This document shows positions 25,280 to 41,206 of a stretch of DNA of 64,000 nucleotides, piece by piece. A model generated the notes under the pieces. That model saw nothing but the letters and a program-made list of their open reading frames with translations. It ran no database searches and was not told the DNA's origin. The stretch is from a phage. Every line of letters begins with the position of its first letter. Position 1 is the stretch's first letter. The stretch is from the sequence record PV806337.1. One strand, written 5' to 3'. A program made the position numbers and the translations under genes.

Positions 25280-25299
25280 ACTTAATTAGGGGATTACAA

Positions 25300-25488: not shown

Positions 25489-25497
25489 GGAGACTAT

Positions 25498-25861: not shown

Positions 25862-25876
25862 ACTTAAGGAAATAAG

Positions 25877-26243: not shown

Positions 26244-26273
26244 CTCCTCCAAACAGAATTTTTAAAAATGTAC

Positions 26274-26303
26274 TTGCCTTTTGCTTTAAATTTCTGATAT
26301 AAT
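26274..26303 (+). promoter_or_regulatory. T5-type promoter
   Basis: TTGCCT 26274-26279, 18 bp, TATAAT 26298-26303. Confidence 0.6.
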
Positions 26304-26333
26304 AGTTATATAAATTGATGAAGGAGTTAACTA

Positions 26334-26609: not shown

Positions 26610-26645
26610 CTAATACAGCATTGGGTAAGTTCTTTAAAATTTGAC

Positions 26646-26674
26646 TTGCTCAGTGCCTTAAAACTTGGTATAAT
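26646..26674 (+). promoter_or_regulatory. T5-type promoter driving tRNA-Tyr/Glu/Trp/Phe group
   Basis: TTGCTC 26646-26651, 17 bp, TATAAT 26669-26674. Confidence 0.65.
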
Positions 26675-26737
26675 AGTTATCTAATTTGGAAACATATTTA
26701 AAAGTGTTTAAACTAGTATTTGAATACTTTTAAATAT

Positions 26738-26828
26738 GTTGGATTAGTATCGTAGAGGTAGCGAAGCAGACTGTAAATCTGCCGACTCGGAAGGGTCTCG
26801 GGTGGTTCGACTCCATCATCCAACACCA
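26738..26828 (+). tRNA. tRNA-Tyr (anticodon GTA)
   Basis: Acceptor GTTGGAT/ATCCAAC, anticodon stem GCAGA/TCTGC, loop CTGTAAA, long variable arm, T-loop TTCGACT, CCA. Confidence 0.8.
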
Positions 26829-26835
26829 AATTTAA

Positions 26836-26912
26836 GTCCTGTTAGACAAACTGGTAAAGTCACTACCCTTTCAAGGTAGGATTTGCGGGTTCGATCCCCG
26901 CACAGGACGCCA
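26836..26912 (+). tRNA. tRNA-Glu (anticodon TTC)
   Basis: Acceptor GTCCTGT/ACAGGAC, anticodon stem CTACC/GGTAG, loop CTTTCAA, T-arm GCGGG-TTCGATC-CCCGC, CCA. Confidence 0.8.
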
Positions 26913-26920
26913 TTTTCTGC

Positions 26921-26997
26921 ATTCCTAGAGTGTTACTGGACAGCATGTCGGTCTCCAAAACCGTACGGTCTAGGTTCGAGTCCTAGTAGGTTTGCCA
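26921..26997 (+). tRNA. tRNA-Trp (anticodon CCA)
   Basis: Anticodon loop CTCCAAA, T-arm CTAGG-TTCGAGT-CCTAG, CCA; acceptor stem has two U-U mismatches. Confidence 0.55.
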
Positions 26998-27003
26998 AAA
27001 TTT

Positions 27004-27078
27004 GCACCTTTAGCTGAGATGGATTAGCGCTTGCCTGAAGAGCTTGAGAGGTTGGATCGTTACCAACGGGGTGCTCCA
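27004..27078 (+). tRNA. tRNA-Phe-like (anticodon GAA), atypical
   Basis: Acceptor GCACCTT/GGGGTGC, anticodon loop CTGAAGA, non-canonical T-loop ATCGTTA, CCA; anticodon stem has two U-U mismatches. Confidence 0.45.
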
Positions 27079-27095
27079 AATTGAAGGAGCTGCTG

Positions 27096-27368
27096 ATGCA
27101 TCCTGAAAACTTCTTTATTTACTGCGCTGATAAGTCGCTGAAACGTAGAATTAACAAAGTCTATCATTATAGTGCTAGTCAACAGCCTTATGTATACGCT
27201 TTTGACGGTGATCACATTCCACTAGAACAATTATCTTGTGATTACATGATATTGAAGAACTTTGATGAGACGAAGATCTCGAGCGTTCACAATCGACAGA
27301 ATCCATTAACGTGGAAATATAAGAAGAAAAAGAAAGGCATCAAATTCTTAAAAAATGTAGTTGCTTAG
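27096..27368 (+). CDS. hypothetical protein
   Basis: ATG 27096 with GAAGGAG RBS, inside track ORF 27081-27368. Confidence 0.5.
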   Translation: MHPENFFIYCADKSLKRRINKVYHYSASQQPYVYAFDGDHIPLEQLSCDYMILKNFDETKISSVHNRQNPLTWKYKKKKKGIKFLKNVVA

Positions 27369-27389
27369 TTTCCAAAAGTTCTGTATAAT
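27361..27389 (+). promoter_or_regulatory. T5-type promoter driving tRNA-Cys
   Basis: TTGCTT 27361-27366, 17 bp, TATAAT 27384-27389. Confidence 0.7.
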
Positions 27390-27437
27390 AATTACATAAA
27401 TTGAACTGGAGAAGCAACATGACAGAACAAGATAAAC

Positions 27438-27513
27438 CGACCGTTGGCTGAATGGCTTAGGCGAAGGATTGCAAATCCTTTTTATGTGAGTTCAAATCTC
27501 ATGCGGTCGTCCA
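27438..27513 (+). tRNA. tRNA-Cys (anticodon GCA)
   Basis: Acceptor CGACCGT/GCGGTCG, anticodon stem AAGGA/TCCTT, loop TTGCAAA, T-loop TTCAAAT, CCA. Confidence 0.8.
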
Positions 27514-27534
27514 AATTACTAAAGGAAAGAAGTA

Positions 27535-28053
27535 GTGCATACAAAAGTTTTTGATAGTTTGGTAAAGAAAGGCGTTGTTACTAACGAGCCCTTCTATATA
27601 ACCGCAGAACTAATCCAGAGATTTATGGAAGAATATATAAATCTTTCAGGAACCAATGGTAATACCAAAAAGAATACAAATACTATGTATTCGAGAAAAC
27701 TTGCTGCACTTTCCTTTATAAAGTTTAAGCAGGAAAATAAACTTCCTATTTCTGAAGGTTTTGTATACTGTATTAGTAATCCTGCATGGAAAAATCAGTA
27801 TAAAATAGGTATGAGTCAAAATCCAAAAGAGAGATTAGCTCAATATCAGACTTATTCCCCTTATAGGGATTATAAGTTAGAGCATTGGTCTTTTTGGTTT
27901 GACAAACGAAAAGGTGAAAAACTAATTCACCAGTATTTCAAAGATTTAAAAGAACATGAGTGGTTTAGTATAAATTCTAGGGATCTTAGTAAATATCTAG
28001 AACGTATTAACTCTAGTTCTGACTTATATGGTTCCTTAGCTCTAATTGGTTAG
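27535..28053 (+). CDS. T5orf172 (GIY-YIG-like) domain protein
   Basis: ORF track 172 aa; FVYCISNP..YKIGMS..RL motif. Confidence 0.6.
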   Translation: MHTKVFDSLVKKGVVTNEPFYITAELIQRFMEEYINLSGTNGNTKKNTNTMYSRKLAALSFIKFKQENKLPISEGFVYCISNPAWKNQYKIGMSQNPKERLAQYQTYSPYRDYKLEHWSFWFDKRKGEKLIHQYFKDLKEHEWFSINSRDLSKYLERINSSSDLYGSLALIG

Positions 28054-28107
28054 AGCGGCATCTTGTTAAGTTGAGGGTTGCTGGTTCGAATCCTGCAGGA
28101 ACCGCCA
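28030..28107 (+). tRNA. tRNA-Asn (anticodon GTT)
   Basis: Acceptor GGTTCCT/AGGAACC perfect, D-arm GCTC-TAATTGGTTA-GAGC, anticodon loop TTGTTAA, T-loop TTCGAAT, CCA. Confidence 0.7.
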
Positions 28108-28209
28108 AATTCTGTGTAGAGTTAAGTAAACCGGTAGCCAACCAGCTATCATTGCTGACATCGAATTCAGCCATAGATACCATTTTCGTTAATAACTGAG
28201 GAAACAAGC

Positions 28210-28395
28210 ATGTCCAAGAATGTAATTGCGCAGCTAGAAGTTCATCGTGATAGCACTATCAACAATATTGAAGTTGAGAAGAAATACATAGAAGAACTTA
28301 AACATGATATACTGGTAAGTCTCAACCGTCTTAATGTACGAAAAGAGTTTCTTAAAGAACTTAATGCAGCTATTGAAAAACTCAAAGCTGAGTAA
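28210..28395 (+). CDS. hypothetical coiled-coil small protein
   Basis: ORF track 61 aa. Confidence 0.5.
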   Translation: MSKNVIAQLEVHRDSTINNIEVEKKYIEELKHDILVSLNRLNVRKEFLKELNAAIEKLKAE

Positions 28396-28404
28396 ATGAA
28401 TTAT

Positions 28405-28481
28405 GCGACCGGGGCTGGCTTGGTAATGGTACTCCCCTGTCACGGGAGAGAATGTGGGTTCAAATCCCATCGGTCGCGCCA
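28405..28481 (+). tRNA. tRNA-Asp (anticodon GTC)
   Basis: Acceptor GCGACCG/CGGTCGC, anticodon stem CTCCC/GGGAG, loop CTGTCAC, T-loop TTCAAAT, CCA. Confidence 0.8.
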
Positions 28482-28498
28482 AATAAGGTAGGTTAGCT

Positions 28499-28657
28499 AT
28501 GGAACGTAGGGAGTTTACTCCAGAAGAGATAGAGCAGATAAAAGAATCTGCTATGAAAAATGCTAGAATATCTCTGTCACTGGAAGGTATCATTATTAGT
28601 GATGTAAACTTTGAAAAAATCAAAGCCATAGCTGATGAACTGGAAAAAGTAATTTAA
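28499..28657 (+). CDS. hypothetical small protein
   Basis: 52-codon frame read by eye between tRNA-Asp and tRNA-Lys. Confidence 0.4.
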   Translation: MERREFTPEEIEQIKESAMKNARISLSLEGIIISDVNFEKIKAIADELEKVI

Positions 28658-28658
28658 T

Positions 28659-28734
28659 ACATCCATAGCTCAATGGTTAGAGCTACCGCCTCTTAAGCGG
28701 AGGGTTCTAGGTTCAAGTCCTAGTGGGTGTACCA
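28659..28734 (+). tRNA. tRNA-Lys (anticodon CTT)
   Basis: Acceptor ACATCCA/TGGGTGT, D-arm GCTC/GAGC, anticodon loop CTCTTAA, T-arm CTAGG-TTCAAGT-CCTAG, CCA. Confidence 0.6.
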
Positions 28735-28760
28735 AATTAAACTAGCACGAGAAATATGCT

Positions 28761-29108
28761 ATGATTAATGCTAAAGAAGAATTGTTACTTGCCCTAAAGA
28801 ATACTAATTCTGAAGTTAAGTGTATTAAGATAGAATTCGGTTATTATGGGGATAAAGAAGTTTGGGTATTACCCGTAGGTTATACAGAAAAAGATATTGA
28901 AGATTTTCTAGATAATCTAGACTTTAAATATGATTCTGGTTTCGGCGGACAATTGCTTTATGGTAACGTATGGTTTACCGATGGAACTTGGTTAGAACGT
29001 GGTGAATATGATGGTTCTGAATGGTGGGAATATAAGACTACACCAGCAATCCCAGAAGAATGCCGAACAATTAATGGTGAAGTAGATCGTACTTTACTAT
29101 TAAATTAA
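28761..29108 (+). CDS. hypothetical protein
   Basis: ORF track 115 aa. Confidence 0.55.
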   Translation: MINAKEELLLALKNTNSEVKCIKIEFGYYGDKEVWVLPVGYTEKDIEDFLDNLDFKYDSGFGGQLLYGNVWFTDGTWLERGEYDGSEWWEYKTTPAIPEECRTINGEVDRTLLLN

Positions 29109-29230
29109 CAAAATTTCAGTGCAGAACACGGAGCTAGCAATTCGGAAGTGCTGACTCATGATAAGCTGCCTATGTACTTGCGAAGCGGTCGTGTCCAAGA
29201 CTCGGACTCTTGCACTGAAAACAATCAAAC

Positions 29231-29352
29231 ATTCTAGCGTGGTTGATGGGGAAACCAGCTTGGCGAGGGCAGAAGCTCGTTCGATTCGAGTGAAAGAATG
29301 GTTCTCGTAAGTCCGCACAAGTGATAACAGGTTCGAGTCCTGTCTAGAATGA
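29231..29352 (+). ncRNA. 122-nt tRNA-like structured RNA (acceptor-like helix, D-arm, two T-arm hairpins)
   Basis: ATTCTAG (29231-29237) pairs perfectly with CTAGAAT (29346-29352); D-arm TGGT/ACCA; T-arm hairpins GCTCG-TTCGATT-CGAGT and ACAGG-TTCGAGT-CCTGT; no CCA; no ORF. Confidence 0.3.
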
Positions 29353-29500
29353 CACTATAAAGTTTACTTATTATGTAGGTTCCGATAGACCGGCGGGTCT
29401 ATTCTGGCATTTAAGAGAGGTCTCGCAAACTTCTTTGTCAGCCGTGGGGTTGGTAGCCTCCAGGTGGCCTACACAATAAGTAAATTTATTAAAAATTCAT

Positions 29501-29529
29501 TTGCTATTCTGCTTTATTATCTGTATAAT
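29501..29529 (+). promoter_or_regulatory. T5-type promoter
   Basis: TTGCTA 29501-29506, 17 bp, TATAAT 29524-29529. Confidence 0.7.
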
Positions 29530-29561
29530 ATATTTTATAAAGTGAAGAGAAGGAAAGCAAA

Positions 29562-29720
29562 ATGAAACACAAGATAGCTCAAGTTTTTATGGCATTATGG
29601 TGTATACCAATAGCTATAACAGCATTTAATCTAGATACTTTTACTATAGAAGAAAAATGTATCGGATTAGTTAGCGGTTTTATTATGCTGGGCTTATCTT
29701 TGCTGTGGTTAAAGAACTAA
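29562..29720 (+). CDS. small membrane protein
   Basis: 52-codon frame after promoter 29501-29529 and GAGAAGGAAAG RBS; hydrophobic. Confidence 0.45.
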   Translation: MKHKIAQVFMALWCIPIAITAFNLDTFTIEEKCIGLVSGFIMLGLSLLWLKN

Positions 29721-29724
29721 TATT

Positions 29725-29802
29725 CTCCGTGTAGCTCAGTTTGGCCAGAGCGTTTCGTTTGGGGCGATAGGGTCGGGGGTTCAAATCCTCCCACGGAGAC
29801 CA
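29725..29802 (+). tRNA. tRNA-Pro (anticodon TGG)
   Basis: Acceptor CTCCGTG/CACGGAG, D-arm GCTC/GAGC, anticodon loop TTTGGGG, T-loop TTCAAAT, CCA. Confidence 0.7.
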
Positions 29803-29808
29803 AACAAT

Positions 29809-29886
29809 TGCGGGTTAGATCTCTGGTAGAGATCGCTAGTCTCATAAGCTAGAAAGAGGTAGGTTCGATTCCTGCACCCGCTTCCA
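29809..29886 (+). tRNA. tRNA with CAT anticodon (Met/fMet/Ile2 type)
   Basis: D-arm GATC/GATC, anticodon stem CTAGT/GCTAG, loop CTCATAA, T-loop TTCGATT, CCA. Confidence 0.7.
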
Positions 29887-29906
29887 CTTTAATAGAGGAT
29901 TTCGAA

Positions 29907-30074
29907 ATGAAAGTATTTCGATTAGTAGTAAGTGACAAACGTTTAGGTAAGAATACCTCAAAATCCTTACTTGCTCATTATGGAAAAGATGAGAAAGAAG
30001 TAATGGCGGAGTTTGGGATTAATCACCCTTACTTGAAAGTTCACTCTATTAAAGAAGTATATAATGGTTACTAA
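29907..30074 (+). CDS. hypothetical small protein
   Basis: 55-codon frame read by eye between tRNA-CAT and tRNA-Lys. Confidence 0.4.
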   Translation: MKVFRLVVSDKRLGKNTSKSLLAHYGKDEKEVMAEFGINHPYLKVHSIKEVYNGY

Positions 30075-30075
30075 T

Positions 30076-30154
30076 AGATCGCTAGCTCAATAGGTTTAGT
30101 AGCATCCGACTTTTAATCGGAAGGTTCTGGGTTCGAGTCCCAGGCGATCTACCA
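30076..30154 (+). tRNA. tRNA-Lys (anticodon TTT)
   Basis: Acceptor AGATCGC/GCGATCT perfect, anticodon stem TCCGA/TCGGA, loop CTTTTAA, T-loop TTCGAGT, CCA. Confidence 0.8.
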
Positions 30155-30172
30155 ATTTCAAGAAAAACGCAG

Positions 30173-30201
30173 TTGCTTGATGCTTAATTTCTTGTTATAA
30201 T
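30173..30201 (+). promoter_or_regulatory. T5-type promoter driving ORF-free segment and tRNA-Ala
   Basis: TTGCTT 30173-30178, 17 bp, TATAAT 30196-30201. Confidence 0.7.
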
Positions 30202-30438
30202 ATTTATATAAATTGATGAGGAGAAATCCTCATCATAGTTCACTAAGGTATTAGCTCGACCTAGGACTGGCTACCAAAAAGCACGATCCCTACGATTTGG
30301 AGAAGTTCTAGATTAGTCCACTAGATTCAGCGGCAACTGAATAGTGTATTGGGTTTGCGAGATGACGCAGTTCCTTCCGCTCGAAGCGAAGGTGCTGTAG
30401 TTACGCCGAGCTAATAGCCTTAGTAAACTAAAGAATTT

Positions 30439-30517
30439 GGGGGATGGGTCTGCTAGGGGTGGACACCTCACTTGCACCGAGGACATCAGAACGATTCGAA
30501 TTCGTTATCCTCCACCA
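30439..30517 (+). tRNA. tRNA-Ala (anticodon TGC)
   Basis: Acceptor GGGGGAT/ATCCTCC, D-stem GTCT/GGAC, anticodon loop CTTGCAC, T-arm AACGA-TTCGAAT-TCGTT, CCA. Confidence 0.6.
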
Positions 30518-30522
30518 AATAC

Positions 30523-30599
30523 GCGTGATTGATGGAATTGGCATACATACCGTCCTTAGAAGTCGGGTTTTGAGGGTTCGAATCCCTTGTCACGCACCA
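30523..30599 (+). tRNA. tRNA with TAG anticodon (Leu by anticodon) but short variable arm
   Basis: Acceptor GCGTGAT/GTCACGC, anticodon loop CTTAGAA, T-arm GAGGG-TTCGAAT-CCCTT, A73, CCA; 5-nt variable region. Confidence 0.5.
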
Positions 30600-30724
30600 A
30601 ATTTGATGGTCAGAGTAAATTAAACCTACTATCTCGGTTGAGCTGTTTTAATGGGTTCGAATCCCAGCGAGGCGTAACTGCCTGGTGTGATAGAGGCATC
30701 ATTCCACTAACATTGGAAAAACTA

Positions 30725-30955
30725 ATGAAACGAAAATTAAAAAAGTCTTATATAATTAAGATAAATAAGCTACGAAGTAGGGCAAAAGGATGGCCACTTC
30801 GAATATTAATTGCGGATAACCATACTAGATACCATGCGGAACAACGTCATTACAAACAGTGGGAGTCATACTGCCGCTCAAAAGCAGGTCGTTTAGATGG
30901 ATCTTATGAGTTTCTATTTGGTAAGAAGCCTACTAGAGTAGCTTTAGGTAATTAA
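30725..30955 (+). CDS. small basic protein
   Basis: In-frame ATG inside track ORF 30587-30955; upstream part carries a tRNA T-arm-like motif. Confidence 0.4.
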   Translation: MKRKLKKSYIIKINKLRSRAKGWPLRILIADNHTRYHAEQRHYKQWESYCRSKAGRLDGSYEFLFGKKPTRVALGN

Positions 30956-30959
30956 TACT

Positions 30960-31050
30960 TGGAAGAGCAAATCGAATTGGCGACGAAAACCGCTTGGAAA
31001 GTGGCTGACTGGTAAAACGGCTTGAGAGTTCAAATCTCTCCTCTTCCGCC
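30960..31050 (+). tRNA. tRNA-Ser (anticodon GGA)
   Basis: Anticodon loop TTGGAAA, long variable arm, T-arm GAGAG-TTCAAAT-CTCTC, acceptor 3' CTCTTCC, CCA. Confidence 0.6.
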
Positions 31051-31062
31051 AAACAATTTATA

Positions 31063-31157
31063 TGGTAGGTCAATCCAATGGCTGGCGTGGGACTCCGACT
31101 TGAAATCGGTTGATCGTAGTGATACGGTGTAAGGGTTCGATCCCCTTACCTACCTCC
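31063..31157 (+). tRNA. tRNA-Ser (anticodon TGA)
   Basis: Acceptor GGTAGGT/ACCTACC perfect, anticodon stem CCGA/TCGG, loop CTTGAAA, long variable arm, T-loop TTCGATC, CCA. Confidence 0.7.
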
Positions 31158-31523
31158 AAATCTTGAAGTATGCCGGAATCGGTAGACGGGGCTGCCTAAA
31201 AGGTTTATAGGGAACATCCACTCCCTGCAACATACCTCATAAAGCGGCTGAGATAAATGGTCTATCTCGTGAAGGTTCAAGTCCTTCTGCTTCTTGATAT
31301 ATCTATGGCTCAAAGTGTAACGGTGCTATTTGATGCTCTTAGTAAGACTTTCCCGACATGCGTTCGGGAGTAAGCTGCTAAGGCTAGAGTAGAAGAGTTT
31401 CGGAGAGCCGCCACAATTGAAAATTCGTACTCGTCTTGAGCTGCGCGCAATAGGAGATAACTTGATTAGTATTCTAGAACATGCTAATTGAGGATGGTTT
31501 CGCTAACCCTGCGAGTTTTCAAT

Positions 31524-31600
31524 TGTGGCTATATCATAATTGGTTAATGATCCTGATTGTGAATCAGGCCTATGTGGATTCGAATTCCACTAGCCACCCC
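31524..31600 (+). tRNA. tRNA-His (anticodon GTG)
   Basis: Acceptor GTGGCTA/TAGCCAC, D-arm TCAT/ATGA, anticodon stem CCTGA/TCAGG, loop TTGTGAA, T-loop TTCGAAT, CCA. Confidence 0.8.
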
Positions 31601-31626
31601 AAATTAACTTAAACAGGAAATAAAAT

Positions 31627-31821
31627 ATGGCTGATTTCTGCAAACAATGCTCCATTGATATGTGGGGCAGAGATACTGGTGATCTTTCTGGTTTGATTAC
31701 AGAAGCTGAAGTTAAAGAAGGCTACGGTGCAGTTGTAGTTTGCGAAGGCTGTGGAGTTATTCGAGTAGATCATGAAGGCAAACGTTTAGAAGAACCTGGG
31801 CCAACTACTCTAATTCCATAG
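31627..31821 (+). CDS. putative zinc-ribbon small protein
   Basis: ORF track 64 aa; CKQC ... CEGC pairs. Confidence 0.55.
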   Translation: MADFCKQCSIDMWGRDTGDLSGLITEAEVKEGYGAVVVCEGCGVIRVDHEGKRLEEPGPTTLIP

Positions 31822-31833
31822 AGTAATAATTAT

Positions 31834-31909
31834 TGGGATGTAGATCAATTGGCAGATCGTCGGCCTCTGACTCCGAAGGTTCCACGTTCGATCCGTGGCA
31901 TCCCAGCCA
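31834..31909 (+). tRNA. tRNA-Gln (anticodon CTG)
   Basis: 76 nt; U1-A72, G73, anticodon positions 34-36 CTG, T-loop TTCGATC, CCA. Confidence 0.8.
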
Positions 31910-31915
31910 AACAAT

Positions 31916-31991
31916 TGGAGAGTAGTGTAACGGTTAGCACAACGGCCTTTGACTCCGTTAATGGTAGGTTCGATTCCTCCTTCTCCAGCCA
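31916..31991 (+). tRNA. tRNA-Gln (anticodon TTG)
   Basis: 76 nt; U1-A72, G73, D-stem GTGT/GCAC, anticodon loop CTTTGAC, T-loop TTCGATT, CCA. Confidence 0.8.
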
Positions 31992-31999
31992 AATAATAA

Positions 32000-32075
32000 G
32001 CGGTTAAGCACACGGGTTGTGTCGCAGGCCTTCCAAGCCTCGCTGAGTAGGGTTCGATTCCCTCTAGCCGCTCCA
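32000..32075 (+). tRNA. tRNA-Gly (anticodon TCC)
   Basis: Acceptor GCGGTTA/TAGCCGC, anticodon loop CTTCCAA, T-loop TTCGATT, U73, CCA. Confidence 0.8.
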
Positions 32076-32091
32076 ACTTTAAGGAAATGTT

Positions 32092-32313
32092 ATGCACGTT
32101 TTTGAGTTTCGTAATAAAAATACTGATAAGCGAGTTATCATTATTGGAGAAACATACCGAGCATATGAACAAACTGACGGCTCTGTTATCTTGAATGATG
32201 AGAAAGGAGGTTTTAGCTTTTATCCAGAAGAACCTTATGAAGAGTTTCGTACTAAGTTTCTTTTACCAGACTGGCTAGCAGTAGCTGAGCAACGAGAATC
32301 CGAAGATGGCTGA
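32092..32313 (+). CDS. hypothetical protein
   Basis: ORF track 73 aa. Confidence 0.5.
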   Translation: MHVFEFRNKNTDKRVIIIGETYRAYEQTDGSVILNDEKGGFSFYPEEPYEEFRTKFLLPDWLAVAEQRESEDG

Positions 32314-32470
32314 TAACCTAAAATTAAGGGTCGACAAACAAAAGAAATACATTGAGGTTGAATTAGGCGAAGAACGCTTAAAGCTAACTTTCGAGTTTCT
32401 TCAGCAGTTGGCAATGACAGTTATGACTGATAAGTCTCCTGTTATTGAAAAAGAAATCCCGTTGAAATAA
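32306..32470 (+). CDS. hypothetical small protein
   Basis: 54-codon frame overlapping previous stop. Confidence 0.4.
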   Translation: MADNLKLRVDKQKKYIEVELGEERLKLTFEFLQQLAMTVMTDKSPVIEKEIPLK

Positions 32471-32478
32471 CGGGTTCT

Positions 32479-32553
32479 GCTCCTAAAGCATTGCTGGCGA
32501 TGCAGTTGCCTTGTAAGCATCTGAACCGGGTTCGATTCCTGGTGGGAGCACCA
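32479..32553 (+). tRNA. tRNA-Thr (anticodon TGT)
   Basis: Acceptor GCTCCTA/TGGGAGC, D-arm GCAT/ATGC, anticodon loop CTTGTAA, T-loop TTCGATT, CCA. Confidence 0.75.
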
Positions 32554-32568
32554 AATTTAAAAATTCAT

Positions 32569-32597
32569 TTGCCTTCTCTCTTATTTCTTGTTATAAT
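32569..32597 (+). promoter_or_regulatory. T5-type promoter
   Basis: TTGCCT 32569-32574, 17 bp, TATAAT 32592-32597. Confidence 0.65.
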
Positions 32598-32627
32598 ATT
32601 TATATAAATTAATGAGAGGGAAACCAA

Positions 32628-32921
32628 ATGAAACGTTATCTTTCTGTAGTATTTCAAACTGGTGGTCAAAGATATACCTATGAATTTCCTAACTCTTGGA
32701 AAATCAAAGAAGGTGATCAAGTTGTTGTGTTAACACCACGTGAAGGATATAAAGTAGTAACTGTTAAACAAGTATTCCCAAAAGATCATGAACCAGCTAA
32801 AGGCATTTGCTATAAGATGATTCATGGTGTAGTTCGTCAAGTACCACGAGCGGAAGTCGAAATCAAAATAGATAAAGATGGTAAACTTAAATACACCTCC
32901 TGCTTAGACGAGTTGCTATAA
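32628..32921 (+). CDS. hypothetical protein
   Basis: ORF track 97 aa after promoter 32569-32597. Confidence 0.55.
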   Translation: MKRYLSVVFQTGGQRYTYEFPNSWKIKEGDQVVVLTPREGYKVVTVKQVFPKDHEPAKGICYKMIHGVVRQVPRAEVEIKIDKDGKLKYTSCLDELL

Positions 32922-33127
32922 TGAGGATTACTTTTACAGAAAAGATCATGAGTAATGGTGTTATGATCATTACCGCATGGGATGGTAATCAGTGGTGTAG
33001 TGTTTCAGGTATTAAACCTGAAGAACAAACACTAGAAAATATCTCAAAGATTAAGCGAAGAATGGCAGAACGTGCACGACTTCCAGGTGCACCCAGAAAT
33101 GGCAAACGTTCTGCAACTAAATGTTAA
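32921..33127 (+). CDS. hypothetical protein
   Basis: ORF track 68 aa, ATGA overlap with previous gene. Confidence 0.5.
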   Translation: MRITFTEKIMSNGVMIITAWDGNQWCSVSGIKPEEQTLENISKIKRRMAERARLPGAPRNGKRSATKC

Positions 33128-33128
33128 T

Positions 33129-33205
33129 GCTTCGGTAGCTTAGCGATCTAAAGCACTCGGCTGATAACCGAGAGATCGGGGGTTTAAATCCCTCCCGGAG
33201 TACCA
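33129..33205 (+). tRNA. tRNA-Ile (anticodon GAT)
   Basis: Anticodon stem CTCGG/CCGAG perfect, loop CTGATAA, atypical T-loop TTTAAAT, CCA. Confidence 0.7.
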
Positions 33206-33301
33206 AATTTAGGAATTAAGACTATGCGTCCAGGAAAGTTTAAAAAAGCTAATTGGTCTAAAGAGTATAAAGAATACTTACTTAGTCTAATAAAACATAA
33301 T

Positions 33302-33377
33302 AGTTAGTTGGCAGAGTGGTTATGCACCTCCTTCATACGGAGCGATTACAGTGGTTCAAATCCACTACTAACTACCA
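33302..33377 (+). tRNA. tRNA with CAT anticodon (Met/fMet/Ile2 type)
   Basis: Acceptor AGTTAGT/ACTAACT perfect, anticodon loop TTCATAC, T-arm AGTGG-TTCAAAT-CCACT, CCA. Confidence 0.7.
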
Positions 33378-37170: not shown

Positions 37171-37199
37171 TTGCTTAGATGCCCAAACTTTTGTATAAT
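37171..37199 (+). promoter_or_regulatory. T5-type promoter
   Basis: TTGCTT 37171-37176, 17 bp, TATAAT 37194-37199. Confidence 0.7.
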
Positions 37200-37230: not shown

Positions 37231-37929
37231 ATGAGGATTATTTCTAAGTTCGCCGATGTGTATGATTTGCAGAACAGTTTGTTCGACCCAGATCGTGTTT
37301 GGGAGCGTAAAACTGAAGAGTTGCTGGTTAAAGTAACCGATGATGCAGAAAAGAACATTGTGCATACTCGCCAGGTATTTCGTGATGGCTCGCTATCTTT
37401 TCGTGGTGATTTCGAATATTTTGTAAACCCACTATTTGTTGCAGGTGAAGTTTACTGGTTGCACGAGCTGTACTGCTGGCATCCGGCATTTAGCTTCAAA
37501 ACGTTCAACCTCGACACTATGTTCGATAAAATGGAAGAGATGGGGTTGCATGCCCGCTCTTATTTAATGGATAAGAGTCGCGGAGATGTTCGTGAAACAA
37601 TGCGTGATTTGCTCGCTGAAGCAAAACCTAAAGCAGAACGTATCTTATCCGAACTGCGTGTACCGATTGCATATGTGAAAGGTATTAAAAAGAACGATAA
37701 CGATGATGTTCGTAACTTCGTGATTCAGACTAACATTCGTTTCCATCAGTCAGGTATTCCGTGGCAGGAAATTGAAAGTAACTTATACCGTTTACACCAA
37801 GTTCTCGAACAGTATATCTTCGGTGTACTAGGAACTGGTGAGCCTGATATGATTAAAGTATCAGATAAAGACAGGTTAGCAGCGCATGGATTTGATACAA
37901 AAACTTCTTTCAGGAATATGGCAAGGTAA
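37231..37929 (+). CDS. hypothetical protein
   Basis: ORF track 232 aa after promoter 37171-37199. Confidence 0.6.
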   Translation: MRIISKFADVYDLQNSLFDPDRVWERKTEELLVKVTDDAEKNIVHTRQVFRDGSLSFRGDFEYFVNPLFVAGEVYWLHELYCWHPAFSFKTFNLDTMFDKMEEMGLHARSYLMDKSRGDVRETMRDLLAEAKPKAERILSELRVPIAYVKGIKKNDNDDVRNFVIQTNIRFHQSGIPWQEIESNLYRLHQVLEQYIFGVLGTGEPDMIKVSDKDRLAAHGFDTKTSFRNMAR

Positions 37930-38335
37930 GTGGTATATCCTGGGAGCAGGTCTAGCGATAGGCATCGGGTTCGGTGCTTATCACTTAGTAGATAAAGTGG
38001 AGACTTTAGCAGGAGATCTTGCGGTAGCTACTAAAAAGATTTCTTCTCTAGAGACTTCCCTCAATAAGGTGAAAGCTGAAAGCGAACTTCGTGAGACTAG
38101 AATGAATCAGTATTTCACAATGAATAATATTTCGCAAGCAGATCTAGACAAAAAGATTAAGCAGTTAGACAAAGCTCTTAGTCGCCAAGATATTATAGCT
38201 GCAAAGCCTGGATTGGTAACATTAATTGCTAAAAAGCAGAGTAAAGAGTTCGAGGAAAGATTAGCATGTTTAACTGGAAACTTGGAATACTGCTCGCAGC
38301 CGCAATCACAATCACAGGCTGTGCAGAAGAAATAA
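37886..38335 (+). CDS. candidate i-spanin (N-terminal TM + coiled coil)
   Basis: ORF track 149 aa; single N-terminal hydrophobic segment then charged helical region. Confidence 0.45.
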   Translation: MDLIQKLLSGIWQGKWYILGAGLAIGIGFGAYHLVDKVETLAGDLAVATKKISSLETSLNKVKAESELRETRMNQYFTMNNISQADLDKKIKQLDKALSRQDIIAAKPGLVTLIAKKQSKEFEERLACLTGNLEYCSQPQSQSQAVQKK

Positions 38336-38619
38336 AACCAGAGCCATCTCATGAGTTAAAGCAAGCTCATGTAGACTGGCCTAAAGGACTTCAACCTTGT
38401 AGCTTTGACTTTAAGTTTGAAAAGAAAGTAGCTACAAATGGAGAAGATGGCGTAGTAGTTGTTGTACCATATAAAGATTGGAATATGTTGGCAAAATGCC
38501 GTGAGGCAGAATATTCATATATTTCACGACTGACAAGTATGGTTTGCTTCTATCGCCAAGATTTACAAGAAAAACGTTGCTTAGTTTACTATCCACCCAT
38601 TACAAATAGGAAAGATTAA
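38266..38619 (+). CDS. candidate o-spanin / outer-membrane lipoprotein
   Basis: ORF track 117 aa; lipobox AITITGC; starts inside 3' end of previous gene in another frame. Confidence 0.45.
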   Translation: MFNWKLGILLAAAITITGCAEEIKPEPSHELKQAHVDWPKGLQPCSFDFKFEKKVATNGEDGVVVVVPYKDWNMLAKCREAEYSYISRLTSMVCFYRQDLQEKRCLVYYPPITNRKD

Positions 38620-39371
38620 TGTCAGTATTAGTCGGTTTACATGGTGAAGCTGGTTCGGGAAAAGATACCGTTGCAAAATTAATTATCGATTGGTGTAATG
38701 ACACGTATCCAACGTGTTTACCCCGTCGTTATAGTTTTGCTAAGCCCGTTTATGAACTTGCATCCGTAATCCTCGGTGTAACTCCAGAGTTTCTAGGAGA
38801 GCGCAGGGGAAAAGAGGTTGACCAATGGTTTACGGTCACACAATCTCAATTGGAGCGAGCCAGAGATGTGTGGTTTAAGTACGGTATCGATAAGTTTGAA
38901 GACTTCTCGTACGTTTGGCCTATTTTTGAGGAAAAATATCTTAATCCTCAACAACTTATCTCAGAGAGTAAAAAAGACGGACTTTATAGTTTATTTATTT
39001 CTCCGAGAAAAATGTTACAGCTCGTAGGAACTGAGCTAGGAAGGCAGCTGGTGCATGAACGCATTTGGCTCATAATTCTGGAGCAATCCATCGCTAAAGA
39101 CGACCCAGACGTCGCCGTAATAACAGATGTTAGATTCCCCAATGAAGGAGAGTTACTCAGAGAAACAAACCATTTAGATATGGATTCTTTGATAGTAAAT
39201 GTAGTACCCGCTGAGCAGAAGTTCACTATTAAATCAGATCATCCATCTGAAAGTGGTATTCCTGCAAAATATATTACTCACGAATTAGTTAATAAATTCG
39301 ATGGTATCAATAACCTTAAACTAGAAGTTTATAACTTCTGTGACTTAGAGCTAGAACCACTAGTTGGATAA
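38619..39371 (+). CDS. dnk: deoxynucleoside monophosphate kinase
   Basis: ORF track 250 aa; P-loop GEAGSGKDT at N-terminus. Confidence 0.7.
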   Translation: MSVLVGLHGEAGSGKDTVAKLIIDWCNDTYPTCLPRRYSFAKPVYELASVILGVTPEFLGERRGKEVDQWFTVTQSQLERARDVWFKYGIDKFEDFSYVWPIFEEKYLNPQQLISESKKDGLYSLFISPRKMLQLVGTELGRQLVHERIWLIILEQSIAKDDPDVAVITDVRFPNEGELLRETNHLDMDSLIVNVVPAEQKFTIKSDHPSESGIPAKYITHELVNKFDGINNLKLEVYNFCDLELEPLVG

Positions 39372-39383
39372 TCAAGGATCGCT

Positions 39384-39983
39384 ATGACTAATAAAAAAGA
39401 AGAAAAGACTAACCTGTTTCACTCCATTCGCCAATCTAATGAGTATACCTTTTTCTTTGATGAAGAATTAGGTCCACCTGATGAATACCGTGATTTATCA
39501 ATGGTACTTATGCAGGCAAATGAGGACGACGAAATTAATCTGATGATTAATGGCCCGGGTGGTTATGTTGATACTGCCGCACAGTTATCTAACTTAATTG
39601 CTAATTGCCGTGGAACAGTTATAGGACACCTGATTGGTCCTAGTGCTTCTGCTTACTGCACAATTTTCCTATCTTGTCATGGATGGGTAGTACACCCACA
39701 TGCTACGCTAATGGGACACACGTTCTCTGGCGGGTTCTGTGAGAAAGGTCAAGAAATCAAGAAAGCCTATGAATCTTACAACAAGTTCGTAGAAGATATG
39801 ATGCTAGATGTCTACTATCCATTCTTCTCAATAGATGAAATCGACGAGATGGTAAAAGACAACAAAAATATCTATCTAGATAGCAAGGAAATACATAAGC
39901 GTATTGAAATCTTGGCAAAATATCGATCTGAGCAATATAATAAAATGCAGTTACCTCAATCCGAGGGGCACAACGAAGAGTAA
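39384..39983 (+). CDS. ClpP-like serine protease
   Basis: ORF track 199 aa; INGPGGYV ... GPSAS ... HP resembles ClpP catalytic core. Confidence 0.6.
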   Translation: MTNKKEEKTNLFHSIRQSNEYTFFFDEELGPPDEYRDLSMVLMQANEDDEINLMINGPGGYVDTAAQLSNLIANCRGTVIGHLIGPSASAYCTIFLSCHGWVVHPHATLMGHTFSGGFCEKGQEIKKAYESYNKFVEDMMLDVYYPFFSIDEIDEMVKDNKNIYLDSKEIHKRIEILAKYRSEQYNKMQLPQSEGHNEE

Positions 39984-39992
39984 GTAATTTTA

Positions 39993-40022
39993 AGCCAGGG
40001 TTAAGTACCCTGGCTTTTCTTT
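39993..40022 (+). terminator. rho-independent terminator after ClpP-like gene
   Basis: Hairpin GCCAGGGTTAAGTACCCTGGC then TTTTCTTTT. Confidence 0.7.
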
Positions 40023-40085: not shown

Positions 40086-40114
40086 TTGAAATTTTCCTCC
40101 AAAATTAGTATAAT
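40086..40114 (+). promoter_or_regulatory. sigma70-type promoter of lysis cassette
   Basis: TTGAAA 40086-40091, 17 bp, TATAAT 40109-40114; holin start TTG 40140. Confidence 0.55.
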
Positions 40115-40139
40115 GGTACTGGTTAGAGGAGGTTACAAA

Positions 40140-40796
40140 TTGGAAAAGTTCTTACAATTATTAACAGTACTGCTCCAAGAAGCGAAAGACCCAGCATCGC
40201 TTCTTAAACGTCTGCTAACTATCTTAGTTGCTGTCATTATTTTCTTATTTGTTAGTAATACTAGTGAAGTGATGTCATTCTTAAAGACTTTTTCCACGTC
40301 TGCAGTTTTACAGGATTTACAAACCCAGAGGATAGATAACTTCCCTAATGTGGCGAGGGAAAAGAGCATGGTTCTCTTCTCTCAGACGGGTGCAGATGCT
40401 GTTTTTGTAGTCAAGTATAAACCAGATGCTATCAATGACTATTCCAATATTATTGCATGGGAAAGTAATGCGCAATTAGATAGGGCTGACTTGGCCGATA
40501 AAGCGGTAAATAAAACGTCTGAATTATACAGACGTCATTTAGAGGGCTTTAACTACGCATCGGATCTAAGTGTAAGAGTAAATAAATATATGGGGTTAAA
40601 TATACCTGCGTTTAAAAACGTTACTTTTAATTACATATACACTTGTCCATACTTCAATCTAAAAAATATCTATGCTGGGTACATTGGTATTGCTTGGAAA
40701 GATAATCCGGTAGATACAGCTGATTCTGAACAGTTCAAGGAATATTTAGCAAAGCTCTGTTCCCCACAACAGAGATCTTTAGGTAGATCAATATGA
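40140..40796 (+). CDS. holin-like membrane protein
   Basis: TTG 40140 with GAGGAGG RBS after promoter 40086-40114; 218 codons; N-terminal TM; immediately upstream of endolysin. Confidence 0.55.
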   Translation: MEKFLQLLTVLLQEAKDPASLLKRLLTILVAVIIFLFVSNTSEVMSFLKTFSTSAVLQDLQTQRIDNFPNVAREKSMVLFSQTGADAVFVVKYKPDAINDYSNIIAWESNAQLDRADLADKAVNKTSELYRRHLEGFNYASDLSVRVNKYMGLNIPAFKNVTFNYIYTCPYFNLKNIYAGYIGIAWKDNPVDTADSEQFKEYLAKLCSPQQRSLGRSI

Positions 40797-41206
40797 GTTT
40801 TAAATTTGGTAAAAATAGTGAAAAACAATTAGCTACCGTTAAGCCCGAACTACAAAAAGTAGCTCGTAGGGCTTTAGAACTATCTCCGTATGATTTCACA
40901 ATCGTGCAAGGTATTCGTACAGTAGCACAAAGTGCCCAGAACATTGCTAATGGTACTTCATTTCTAAAAGATCCTAGTAAAAGCAAACATATTACTGGGG
41001 ATGCTATTGATTTTGCTCCATATATTAATGGCAAAATTGATTGGAATGACTTAGAAGCATTTTGGGCAGTTAAAAAGGCTTTTGAACAAGCTGGTAAAGA
41101 GCTAGGCATTAAACTTCGTTTTGGTGCTGATTGGAATGCTTCGGGAGATTATCACGACGAAATAAAACGTGGTACCTATGATGGCGGTCATGTCGAACTA
41201 GTTTAA
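40793..41206 (+). CDS. lys: endolysin, L-alanyl-D-glutamate peptidase (M15/VanY-like)
   Basis: ORF track 137 aa; SKHITGDAIDF and DGGHVEL zinc-peptidase motifs; terminator at 41214-41241. Confidence 0.8.
   Translation: MSFKFGKNSEKQLATVKPELQKVARRALELSPYDFTIVQGIRTVAQSAQNIANGTSFLKDPSKSKHITGDAIDFAPYINGKIDWNDLEAFWAVKKAFEQAGKELGIKLRFGADWNASGDYHDEIKRGTYDGGHVELV

What the first reader, a model, noticed from the sequence alone, without database searches (positions are those of the whole stretch)
37886..38619. Candidate overlapped spanin pair upstream of the lysis cassette
Gene 37886-38335 encodes an N-terminal transmembrane segment followed by a charged helical domain (i-spanin-like). Gene 38266-38619 starts inside its 3' end in another frame and encodes a lipoprotein with lipobox ITGC and several cysteines (o-spanin-like). 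This matches the overlapped Rz/Rz1 architecture. Holin (40140-40796) and endolysin (40793-41206) lie 1.5 kb downstream, so the lysis functions would be split around the dNMP kinase and ClpP-like genes.
Basis: partly seen in the sequence, partly recalled or inferred. Interest (0 to 1): 0.6.

Follow-up and report, generated by a model that had tools for sequence, protein, structure and literature searches.

The report
Known T5-family overlapped spanin gene pair

Summary
Observation confirmed, interpretation supported, and already known. The window is a T5-like phage (Demerecviridae, Tequintavirus).

- **The two genes.** ORF 37886-38335 (149 aa) has an N-terminal transmembrane segment followed by a helical periplasmic domain. 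ORF 38266-38619 (117 aa) starts 70 nt inside it in another frame. It carries a signal peptide with lipobox ITGC (Cys19), Ala at +2, and four further cysteines.
- **Family assignment.** They match PHROG 739 and PHROG 812 ("Rz-like spanin") at 1e-37 and 5e-30. They are 93% and 95% identical to T5 genes T5.045 and T5.044.
- **Prior description.** Kongari et al. 2018 define a "T5" i-spanin and o-spanin family and state that the T5 spanins overlap by 70 bp. Their database holds a near-identical 149-aa sequence from phage AKFV33.
- **Link to tested proteins.** The pair falls in the same PHROGs as T4-like PseT.3/PseT.2. The T4 pair complements a lambda Rz/Rz1 defect, and its two essential cysteines align with Cys94/Cys105 here.
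- **Gene order.** The order spanins, dNMP kinase, ClpP-like gene, terminator, promoter, holin, endolysin is conserved across five Demerecviridae genera.

I found no direct experimental test of the T5-family pair itself.

The parts
37231..37929 (+). First gene of the operon. It is the homologue of T5.047, function unknown, and its 3' end overlaps the i-spanin start by 44 nt.
   Evidence: ORF. phrog_4243, 2.1e-114, unknown function. Same position as T5.047 in the T5 record. TTGCTT-17-TATAAT at 37171-37199 and a hairpin with a T-run just upstream were read from the sequence. They sit where T5 annotates a terminator and a promoter.
37886..38335 (+). i-spanin gene (149 aa), encoding the inner-membrane subunit of a two-component spanin.
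   Evidence: phrog_739 'Rz-like spanin', 1.4e-37. 93% identical to T5.045. Near-identical to the AKFV33 i-spanin in the SpaninDataBase. BLASTP 1e-05 to the T4-like VR5 PseT.3 homologue, which is in the same PHROG.
37934..37990 (+). Codons for the N-terminal transmembrane segment of the i-spanin (residues 17-35, YILGAGLAIGIGFGAYHLV). It is rich in Gly and Ala.
   Evidence: Best 19-residue hydropathy window, mean 1.55. An N-terminal hydrophobic segment is present in all nine aligned homologues.
38267..38293 (+). Codons for the C-terminal CX7C motif of the i-spanin (Cys128 to Cys136). They lie inside the overlap with the o-spanin signal sequence.
   Evidence: Both cysteines are conserved in all Demerecviridae homologues aligned. 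They are absent from the shorter T4-like PseT.3 homologue.
38266..38335 (+). The 70-nt dual-coding overlap. The i-spanin C-terminal tail is read in one frame and the o-spanin signal peptide in another.
   Evidence: Coordinates. Same 70 nt in T5 and Baret and stated for T5 in PMC6139136. Low variation with no third-position bias. The o-spanin ATG lies across the Ala127-Cys128 codons, and its GAGGA ribosome-binding site (38252-38256) lies across the Glu-Glu codons of the i-spanin.
38266..38619 (+). o-spanin gene (117-aa precursor, 99-aa mature lipoprotein), encoding the outer-membrane subunit.
   Evidence: phrog_812 'Rz-like spanin', 5.1e-30. 95% identical to T5.044. BLASTP 2e-10 to the T4-like VR5 PseT.2 homologue, which is in the same PHROG. 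tblastn finds it in 572 phage records.
38311..38322 (+). Lipobox ITGC (residues 16-19). Cys19 is the predicted lipid-modified first residue of the mature protein.
   Evidence: Pattern and position. The G-C is invariant across six homologues. The Sugarland homologue is annotated with LipoP SPII cleavage at residues 18-19.
38619..39371 (+). dNMP kinase gene in the same operon. Its ATG shares one base with the o-spanin stop codon.
   Evidence: phrog_139, 3.6e-51. T5 dnk occupies the same position. The TAATG junction is visible.
39384..39983 (+). ClpP-like protease gene, the last gene of the operon.
   Evidence: phrog_1827, 1.4e-89. PF00574, 4.6e-08.
39992..40016 (+). Intrinsic terminator that ends the spanin-dnk-ClpP transcription unit.
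   Evidence: 10-bp stem with 6 G-C pairs, followed by a T-run. Folds at -17.9 kcal/mol, z = -4.87. A terminator is annotated at the same place in T5 and Sugarland.
40086..40114 (+). Promoter-like site for the separate holin-endolysin operon.
   Evidence: TTGAAA-17-TATAAT, 11 of 12 matches. A promoter is annotated at this position in T5.
40140..40796 (+). Holin of the T4 gpt type (single transmembrane domain). It starts at TTG 40140, preceded by GAGGAGG.
   Evidence: PF11031, 2.2e-112. phrog_860, 7.1e-78. Sequence context. Same 657-nt length as T5.041.
40793..41206 (+). Endolysin (M15-type peptidase).
   Evidence: phrog_465, 1.1e-54. PF13539 at its cut-off score. T5 lys occupies the same position.

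Best explanation
The two genes encode the two-component spanin of a T5-like phage. They are orthologues of T5.045 (i-spanin) and T5.044 (o-spanin) and distant homologues of T4 PseT.3/PseT.2.

**Proposed mechanism.** Steps 1, 2 and 6 are read from the sequence. Steps 3 to 5 are inferred from work on lambda and T4 spanins.
1. The 149-aa protein inserts in the inner membrane by its N-terminal transmembrane segment, N-terminus in and C-terminus out. It extends a largely helical, coiled-coil-type domain into the periplasm.
2. The 117-aa precursor is exported, lipid-modified on Cys19 and cleaved by signal peptidase II. Because residue +2 is Ala and not Asp, the Lol pathway sorts it to the inner leaflet of the outer membrane.
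3. The two periplasmic domains bind each other through the peptidoglycan mesh, forming a bridge across the periplasm.
4. Disulfide bonds stabilise the complex. Cys94/Cys105 of the o-spanin correspond to the two essential cysteines of T4 PseT.2.
5. The complexes stay trapped until the holin (40140-40796) releases the endolysin (40793-41206) and the wall is degraded. They then collapse and fuse the inner and outer membranes, which is the last step of lysis.
6. The pair is not in the holin-endolysin operon. It lies in the upstream transcription unit together with dNMP kinase and a ClpP-like gene.
For: - **ORFs and overlap:**
- **Transmembrane segment, lipobox, Ala at +2, cysteines:**
- **Family matches:** phrog_739 at 1.4e-37 and phrog_812 at 5.1e-30, both 'Rz-like spanin'.
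- **Identity to T5:** 93% and 95% identical to T5.045 and T5.044, annotated 'Rz-like spanin' in NC_005859 with notes of similarity to T4 PseT.2.
- **Link to T4-like spanins:** the VR5 PseT.3/PseT.2 homologues hit the same two PHROGs at 2e-35 and 1e-42. They align with the window proteins at 1e-05 and 2e-10, including the motif MVCFYRQDLQEKRC against MLCYYRSGLKEERC.
- **Literature (Kongari et al. 2018, PMC6139136):**
  - It defines T5 i-spanin and o-spanin families, gives the 70-bp overlap and lists near-identical sequences.
  - It shows that T4 pseT.3/pseT.2 complement lambda RzamRz1am and that PseT.2 C87 and C98 are essential.
- **Conservation across genera:** transmembrane segment, lipobox, cysteines, overlap and synteny are kept in Tequintavirus, Sugarlandvirus, Hongcheonvirus, Priunavirus and Novosibvirus.
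- **Selection:** the codon-position pattern indicates purifying selection in both frames.
- **Transcription:** terminator and promoter lie between the ClpP-like gene and the holin.
Against: - I found no direct experiment on a T5-family spanin. A full-text search for T5.044/T5.045 returned nothing, and the genome papers only annotate the genes.
- Lipid modification, outer-membrane sorting, complex formation and the lysis phenotype are all inferred.
- Pfam and NCBIfam have no model that recognises either protein, and no solved structure is related.
- The single-sequence AlphaFold model of the o-spanin is unreliable (pLDDT 48). The i-spanin model is only moderately confident.
- The transmembrane segment is only moderately hydrophobic (mean 1.55) and rich in glycine.
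Confidence: 0.93

Rival explanations
1. The 117-aa lipoprotein is a lytic-conversion or superinfection-exclusion lipoprotein of the T5 Llp or Cor type, which blocks the phage receptor. The upstream membrane protein would then be unrelated to lysis.
For: T5-like phages do encode such lipoproteins (cited). The gene lies in an operon with metabolic genes rather than with the holin and endolysin.
Against: - The window has a separate lipoprotein of that kind at 61881-62147 (-). It matches phrog_1119 'Cor superinfection exclusion protein' at 1.7e-26 and sits next to the receptor-binding protein gene, phrog_4815 at 1.5e-273.
- The 38266 product matches only the spanin PHROG.
- It aligns with the T4-like VR5 PseT.2 homologue, including the positions of the two cysteines essential in T4 PseT.2.
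- It is always paired and overlapped with the i-spanin gene across five genera.
Confidence: 0.02
2. The pair descends from spanins but no longer performs, or is not needed for, outer-membrane disruption in T5-like phages. It could have another envelope role during infection, or be redundant with another route of outer-membrane disruption.
For: It is transcribed apart from the holin-endolysin operon. I found no experimental test of it. Demerecviridae members carry extra cysteines, CX7C in the i-spanin and Cys45/Cys78 in the o-spanin, that T4-like homologues lack.
Against: - All spanin-defining sequence features are kept under purifying selection in several hundred T5-like phage genomes and five genera.
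- T4 also keeps its functional spanin genes away from its holin and endolysin genes (legend of Fig. 8).
- No other spanin candidate was seen in this 64-kb window: the only other credible lipoprotein-signal candidate in it is the Cor-like gene. The rest of the genome was not examined.
Confidence: 0.04
3. The second ORF is a chance open frame inside and after the first gene, and is not translated.
For: Several public records leave it unannotated or call it a hypothetical protein.
Against: - A GAGGA ribosome-binding site lies 9 nt upstream of the start.
- The first base of the start codon varies only between A and G in relatives, so it stays ATG or GTG.
- The region unique to this ORF shows third-position-biased variation, 7/7/30, and no stop codons.
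- Lipobox and cysteines persist at 24-44% identity in other genera and in a T4-like phage.
Confidence: 0.01

Closest known systems
Phage T5 spanins T5.045 (i-spanin) and T5.044 (o-spanin): the 'T5' i-spanin and o-spanin families of the SpaninDataBase (Kongari et al. 2018)
   Same: - 93% and 95% amino-acid identity.
- Same lengths for the o-spanin, 117 aa.
- Same 70-nt overlap and frame offset, same lipobox ITGC, same cysteine positions.
- Same neighbours: dnk, ClpP-like gene, terminator, holin, endolysin.
   Different: - The first 10 or so residues of the i-spanin differ, and it is 149 aa here against 147 aa in T5.
- T5 carries the HNH homing endonuclease gene hegF immediately upstream of the i-spanin. 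Here that gene is absent and the T5.047 homologue overlaps the i-spanin start by 44 nt.
- The N-terminus here matches the AKFV33/Baret variant, MDLIQKLLSGIW.
Phage T4 PseT.3 / PseT.2 (spanins of 'separated' architecture, experimentally validated)
   Same: - Same PHROG families, 739 and 812.
- Alignable over the transmembrane segment, the helical domain and the AAKPGL/ASKPGL motif of the i-spanin.
- Alignable over the lipobox, the WP motif and the C-terminal C-x10-C of the o-spanin, which holds the two cysteines essential in T4.
- Located away from the holin and endolysin genes.
   Different: - Only about 30% identity.
- In the T4-like genes the pair merely abut (4-nt ATGA overlap in VR5) instead of overlapping by 70 nt.
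- The T4-like i-spanin is shorter, 117 aa, with no cysteines. The Demerecviridae version has a C-terminal extension with CX7C.
- The T4-like o-spanin lacks the Cys45/Cys78 pair.
Phage lambda Rz / Rz1 (prototype two-component spanin, 'embedded' architecture)
   Same: Same two-subunit logic: an inner-membrane protein with a periplasmic coiled coil plus an outer-membrane lipoprotein, encoded in different frames of shared DNA, with periplasmic cysteines. T4 homologues of the present pair replace Rz/Rz1 functionally.
   Different: - No detectable sequence similarity: no Pfam Rz or Rz1 hit.
- Rz1 is wholly embedded in Rz, has 40 mature residues and is proline-rich with no predicted secondary structure.
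- The o-spanin here extends beyond the i-spanin gene. It has 99 mature residues, 7 prolines and 4 periplasmic cysteines.
Phage P2 spanin pair (prototype of the 'overlapped' architecture)
   Same: The o-spanin gene starts inside the i-spanin gene and ends beyond it (architecture definition and the P2 example in PMC6139136).
   Different: P2 heads a different spanin family in the Kongari tables. In P2 the spanin genes are part of the lysis cassette; that last point rests on my own knowledge and was not tested here.
Shivani / phiR2-01 spanins (same T5 family, 'separated' by a homing endonuclease gene)
   Same: The o-spanin and most of the i-spanin are nearly identical to those of the window.
   Different: An endonuclease gene of about 700 bp lies between the two genes. 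This replaces the i-spanin tail after the CX7C motif and the first residues of the o-spanin signal peptide, MHKIK against MFNWK.

Membership tests
Two-component spanin (functional class, criteria of Summer et al. 2007 and Kongari et al. 2018) | i-spanin: a small protein with a single N-terminal transmembrane segment and a periplasmic domain predicted to be largely helical or coiled coil | tested here: met
   Transmembrane segment at residues 17-35. 9 of 13 heptad a/d positions are hydrophobic in residues 36-80. AlphaFold places a helix at 30-79 with pLDDT 80-90 over about residues 41-70. The SpaninDataBase lists a coiled coil at residues 33-76 for the near-identical AKFV33 protein.
Two-component spanin (functional class) | o-spanin: a small protein with a signal peptidase II signal and lipobox, and no Asp at +2, so it is sorted to the outer membrane | tested here: met
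   MFNWKLGILLAAAITITG|CA: lipobox ITGC at 16-19 and Ala at +2. This is a rule-based check only, because LipoP and SignalP were not available. The Sugarland homologue carries a LipoP SPII call at 18-19.
Two-component spanin (functional class) | The two genes are adjacent, in embedded, overlapped or separated arrangement, with the o-spanin downstream | tested here: met
   70-nt overlap in a different frame, and the o-spanin ends 284 nt beyond the i-spanin stop. This is the 'overlapped' arrangement.
Two-component spanin (functional class) | Periplasmic cysteines available for intermolecular disulfide bonds (507 of 528 known pairs have at least one) | tested here: met
   Two cysteines in the i-spanin (C128, C136) and four in the mature o-spanin beyond the lipid-modified Cys (C45, C78, C94, C105).
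Two-component spanin (functional class) | The two subunits form a complex across the periplasm and are required for outer-membrane disruption: spherical cells in Mg2+ when absent, and complementation of lambda RzamRz1am | not testable with these tools
   Shown for the homologous T4 pair. I found no experiment for T5-family members.
T5 i-spanin and o-spanin families (SpaninDataBase: at least 40% identity over at least 40% of the length) | Sequence identity to T5.045 and T5.044 above the family threshold | tested here: met
   129 of 139 residues identical (93%) and 111 of 117 identical (95%).
T4 PseT.3 / PseT.2 superfamily (PHROG 739 and PHROG 812) | Significant profile match of both proteins to the families that also hold the T4-like proteins | tested here: met
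   Window proteins score 1.4e-37 and 5.1e-30. The VR5 PseT.3-like and PseT.2-like proteins score 2.1e-35 and 1.1e-42 against the same PHROGs.
Lambda Rz (Pfam Phage_lysis) and Rz1 (Pfam Rz1) sequence families | A match to the Pfam models above the gathering score | tested here: not met
   Neither protein has a Pfam hit above cut-off, and no Rz or Rz1 model is listed even at E up to 1. The pair works like Rz/Rz1 but is not a member of those sequence families.
Llp / Cor-type superinfection-exclusion lipoproteins (considered as a rival) | A profile match to the family and a position next to the receptor-binding protein gene | tested here: not met
   The 38266 product hits only phrog_812. The Cor-like match (phrog_1119) belongs to a different gene, 61881-62147, beside the receptor-binding protein gene.

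The most novel reading that the evidence does not exclude
Demerecviridae spanins may use a disulfide arrangement different from both lambda and T4. All Demerecviridae i-spanins aligned carry a C-terminal CX7C extension, encoded entirely within the DNA shared with the o-spanin signal peptide. Most of their o-spanins carry an extra cysteine pair, Cys45/Cys78, which is lost as a pair in Providencia phage PSTCR5 and in T4-like phages. If the CX7C motif forms covalent links to the o-spanin, rather than the homotypic links known in lambda and T4, this would be a new way of locking the periplasmic bridge. It would also explain why the overlap is so strongly constrained. In addition, transcription from the operon that holds dnk may mean the complexes are assembled long before lysis.
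Probability: 0.12. Interest if true: 0.3.

Novelty: already known. Interest (0 to 1): 0.07.

Why it matters
It matters little beyond correct annotation. The pair is the last-step lysis function, outer-membrane disruption, of a T5-like phage. It is already listed in the SpaninDataBase family 'T5' and in the T5 reference annotation.

There is some practical value. Many public T5-like records, including the closest relative NG_A1, still call one or both genes 'hypothetical protein' or omit the overlapped o-spanin. Transferring the annotation is therefore justified.

A small open point is that no T5-family spanin seems to have been tested experimentally. The family's cysteine content is also high: 6 periplasmic cysteines, a total shared by only 16 of the 526 pairs tabulated in the 2018 survey. 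Its role is unexplored.

Tried and rejected
- **Pfam and NCBIfam scans of both proteins.** No meaningful hits. The only ones were sub-threshold coiled-coil or transmembrane noise such as FtsL_COG5462 at 20.9 bits against a cut-off of 50. This rejects membership of the lambda Rz/Rz1 Pfam families.
- **PDB sequence search.** Nothing below E = 0.1.
- **Single-sequence AlphaFold of the o-spanin.** Mean pLDDT 48, so it was not used for any structural claim or fold search. The i-spanin model (pLDDT 62.9) was used only as weak support for the long helix. The large protein-database searches needed for deep alignments were not spent on a finding that was already explained.
- **The search for related loci with the six-genus o-spanin alignment.** It failed because no stretch was conserved enough. 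The single-protein query then gave 28 close relatives.
- **Substitution analysis.** Only 12 gap-free distinct sequences were used. Relatives in which blastn placed a compensating pair of gaps were left out. In Baret and T5 the matching protein difference is Pro-Thr for Lys-Gln at o-spanin residues 32-33; I did not check that the gaps fall there.
- **Literature.** A full-text search for T5.044/T5.045 found no paper. Summer et al. 2007 (J Mol Biol) is not held in the library, so I could not check whether T5 was already listed there.
- **Llp/Cor-type lipoprotein rival.** Considered and rejected.
Full report
**What the window is.** The 4-kb stretch around the finding matches 456 phage records. The best are Tequintavirus genomes: Escherichia phage Baret at 97.1% and Salmonella phage SIA3lw at 97.0%. 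The 734 bases of the finding are 99.7% identical to E. coli phage NG_A1. The window also holds a cluster of 21 tRNA genes, as T5 relatives do by my own knowledge, and a T5-type receptor-binding protein gene. It is a T5-like siphophage of Enterobacteriaceae (Demerecviridae).

**Check of the observation.** Both ORFs are present exactly as described: 37886-38335 (149 aa) and 38266-38619 (117 aa), both starting with ATG. They share 70 nt, and the second start is offset by 2 nt modulo 3 from the first frame.

- **First product.** Its most hydrophobic 19-residue window is residues 17-35, YILGAGLAIGIGFGAYHLV. Lysines lie before it and acidic residues after it, which fits an N-in, C-out orientation. 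The remaining 114 residues are charged. In residues 36-80, 9 of 13 heptad a/d positions are hydrophobic. A single-sequence AlphaFold model, weak overall at pLDDT 62.9, draws one long helix at 30-79 with pLDDT 80-90 over about residues 41-70.
- **Second product.** It begins MFNWKLGILLAAAITITG|CA. That is a basic residue, an uncharged hydrophobic core, lipobox ITGC at 16-19 and Ala at +2. Further cysteines lie at 45, 78, 94 and 105. The mature protein has 99 residues.
- **Rarity of the signal.** A rule-based scan of all 862 start-resolved ORF candidates in the window returned five entries from four ORFs. I judge two credible: this one and a Cor/Llp-like gene. Shuffled sequence gave a mean of 0.47.
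- **Start sites.** A GAGGA ribosome-binding site lies 9 nt upstream of the second ATG.

**Both frames are under selection.** In 12 distinct, gap-free relatives, variable sites pile up at codon position 3 in the parts unique to each gene. Counts for positions 1/2/3 are 14/4/47 in the i-spanin frame and 7/7/30 in the o-spanin frame. The 70-nt overlap varies little and shows no third-position bias in either frame. No sequence has an internal stop codon. The first base of the second start codon varies only between A and G, so the codon stays ATG or GTG, and the change is silent in the first frame.

**What it is.**
- The products match PHROG 739 (1.4e-37) and PHROG 812 (5.1e-30), both named 'Rz-like spanin'.
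- In the T5 reference record the syntenic genes T5.045 and T5.044 are annotated 'Rz-like spanin', with notes of similarity to T4 PseT.2. They are 93% and 95% identical to the window proteins.
- Many other records call them i-spanin and o-spanin.
- Kongari et al. 2018 (PMC6139136) list a 'T5' i-spanin family and a 'T5' o-spanin family: T5, EPS7, Stitch, SPC35, AKFV33, FFH1, DT57C, My1, phiR201 and Shivani.
- The same paper states that 'the T5 spanins overlap by 70 bp', and that in Shivani and phiR201 a homing endonuclease gene separates the two genes.
- Its supplementary tables hold the AKFV33 i-spanin, a 149-aa sequence nearly identical to the one here. The start, the 70-nt overlap and a predicted coiled coil at residues 33-76 all agree.

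The finding is therefore an already described member of an already described family.

**Relation to experimentally tested spanins.** The PseT.3-like and PseT.2-like proteins of the T4-like phage VR5 hit the same two PHROGs, at 2.1e-35 and 1.1e-42. They align with the window proteins at 1e-05 and 2e-10. tblastn with the o-spanin also reaches o-spanins of other T4-like phages, at 2e-5 to 7e-3.

For T4, pseT.3/pseT.2 complement a lambda RzamRz1am lysis defect, and both PseT.2 cysteines, C87 and C98, are essential. These two cysteines align with Cys94 and Cys105 here, and both are invariant in my alignments.

By contrast, neither protein matches the Pfam models of lambda Rz or Rz1. The pair works like Rz/Rz1 but belongs by descent with PseT.3/PseT.2.

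**Anatomy across the family.** I extracted the pair from phages of five Demerecviridae genera (Tequintavirus, Sugarlandvirus, Hongcheonvirus, Priunavirus, Novosibvirus) and from one T4-like phage.
- **Conserved in all:** the N-terminal transmembrane segment, the AAKPGL-type motif, the lipobox with Cys at position 17-19, a Pro in the WP motif, and the C-terminal C-x(8-10)-C.
- **Specific to Demerecviridae:** a C-terminal i-spanin extension with CX7C (Cys128/Cys136 here).
- **How the overlap is built:** the o-spanin start codon lies across the Ala/Ser-Cys codons of that CX7C motif. Its ribosome-binding site lies across the preceding Glu-Glu codons.
- **Overlap length:** 34, 49, 70 or 88 nt depending on the genus.
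- **Extra cysteine pair:** Cys45 and Cys78 of the o-spanin are present together or absent together. Both are missing in PSTCR5 and in VR5, which suggests an intramolecular pair. This is an inference.
- **Cysteine count:** six periplasmic cysteines put the pair in the upper range of the 2018 survey, where 16 of 526 pairs have six.

**Context and expression.**
- The upstream ORF 37231-37929 (T5.047 homologue, unknown function) overlaps the i-spanin start by 44 nt. The o-spanin stop shares a base with the dnk start.
- After the ClpP-like gene comes a strong hairpin with a T-run at 39992-40016: -17.9 kcal/mol, z = -4.87.
- Next comes TTGAAA-17-TATAAT at 40086-40114, then GAGGAGG, then the TTG start of the holin at 40140.
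- T5 and Sugarland carry annotated terminators at the same place, and T5 also an annotated promoter there.
- The spanin genes are therefore in a different transcription unit from the holin and endolysin genes. The order spanins, dnk, ClpP-like gene, terminator, holin, endolysin is conserved in all five genera.
- This split is not unusual. T4 also keeps its spanin genes apart from its holin and endolysin genes (legend of Fig. 8).

**Mechanism.** The subunit topology is read from the sequence. The rest is inferred from the lambda and T4 systems.
1. The i-spanin is anchored in the inner membrane.
2. The o-spanin is lipid-modified and sorted to the outer membrane.
3. Their periplasmic domains bind through the wall meshwork and are stabilised by disulfide bonds.
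4. Once the endolysin removes the peptidoglycan, the complexes fuse the two membranes and release the progeny.

**Rivals.**
- **Llp/Cor-type exclusion lipoprotein.** Unlikely, because the phage has its own copy elsewhere. That gene is at 61881-62147 (-), matches phrog_1119 at 1.7e-26, and lies beside the receptor-binding protein gene.
- **Chance ORF.** Excluded by the conservation data.
- **Spanin descent but loss or change of function.** This cannot be excluded without experiments, since I found no direct test of a T5-family spanin. All defining features are nevertheless maintained.

**Verdict.** It is already known, so interest is low.

Noticed in passing
window 61881-62147 (-) and 62233-63990 (+): A second lipoprotein gene (88 aa, lipobox LSGC, Cys17) matches 'Cor superinfection exclusion protein' (phrog_1119, 1.7e-26). 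It lies divergently next to a 585-aa receptor-binding tail protein gene (phrog_4815, 1.5e-273). This looks like the Llp/pb5-type pairing of T5-like phages.
   Followed up: partly
window 40086-40140: The holin most likely starts at TTG 40140, with GAGGAGG 7 nt upstream, giving 218 aa as in T5.041. The ATG at 40113 used as the holin start in the Baret and SIA3lw records lies inside the -10 hexamer (TATAAT|G) of the promoter-like site 40086-40114. Those annotations are probably 27 nt too long.
   Followed up: partly
window 37886-37929; L003 (T5) 4246-4743: T5 carries the HNH homing endonuclease gene hegF between T5.047 and the i-spanin gene. The window lacks it, and the T5.047 homologue overlaps the i-spanin start by 44 nt. 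The first 17 or so residues of the i-spanin hold 13 of its 31 variable positions among relatives. Shivani has an endonuclease gene at the other end of the i-spanin gene instead. Both ends of this gene therefore appear to be insertion sites for homing endonuclease genes.
   Followed up: partly
window 38398-38400 and 38497-38499 (o-spanin Cys45, Cys78); L006, L008: Cys45 and Cys78 of the o-spanin are present together in four Demerecviridae genera. They are absent together in Providencia phage PSTCR5 and in the T4-like phage VR5, which suggests that they form an intramolecular disulfide. The i-spanin CX7C motif is present in all Demerecviridae members and absent from the T4-like one.
   Followed up: partly
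window 37934-37990: The i-spanin transmembrane segment is unusually rich in Gly and Ala (GAGLAIGIGFGA, with repeated small-x-small spacing) and only moderately hydrophobic (mean 1.55). Homologues in Hongcheonvirus and Priunavirus have ordinary, strongly hydrophobic segments (about 2.4). I do not know whether this matters, for example for helix-helix packing.
   Followed up: no
window 38359-38364 (o-spanin residues 32-33): The window and NG_A1 read Lys-Gln (AAG CAA) where T5 and Baret read Pro-Thr (CCA ACA). blastn places a compensating pair of gaps in its alignments to Baret and to several other relatives. I did not check that the gaps fall at these codons. This looks like a small local rearrangement in the linker after the lipid-modified Cys.
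   Followed up: no
window 60152-61900: A gene matching 'polynucleotide kinase' (phrog_415, 6.7e-57; by position possibly the T5 pre-early deoxyribonucleotidase gene) lies about 1 kb from the Cor-like and receptor-binding protein genes. In T5 the pre-early region and the receptor-binding protein gene are, from my own knowledge, at opposite genome ends. If so, the source assembly would be circularly permuted, or would hold only one copy of the terminal repeat.
   Followed up: no
window 21497-33377: A cluster of 21 tRNA genes lies on the + strand, as expected from my own knowledge for a T5-like early region.
   Followed up: no
L004 (Klebsiella phage Sugarland) 3127-3588: The public note on the Sugarland i-spanin says 'N-terminal TMD N out C in'. 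This is the opposite of the topology expected for an i-spanin and is probably an annotation slip.
   Followed up: no
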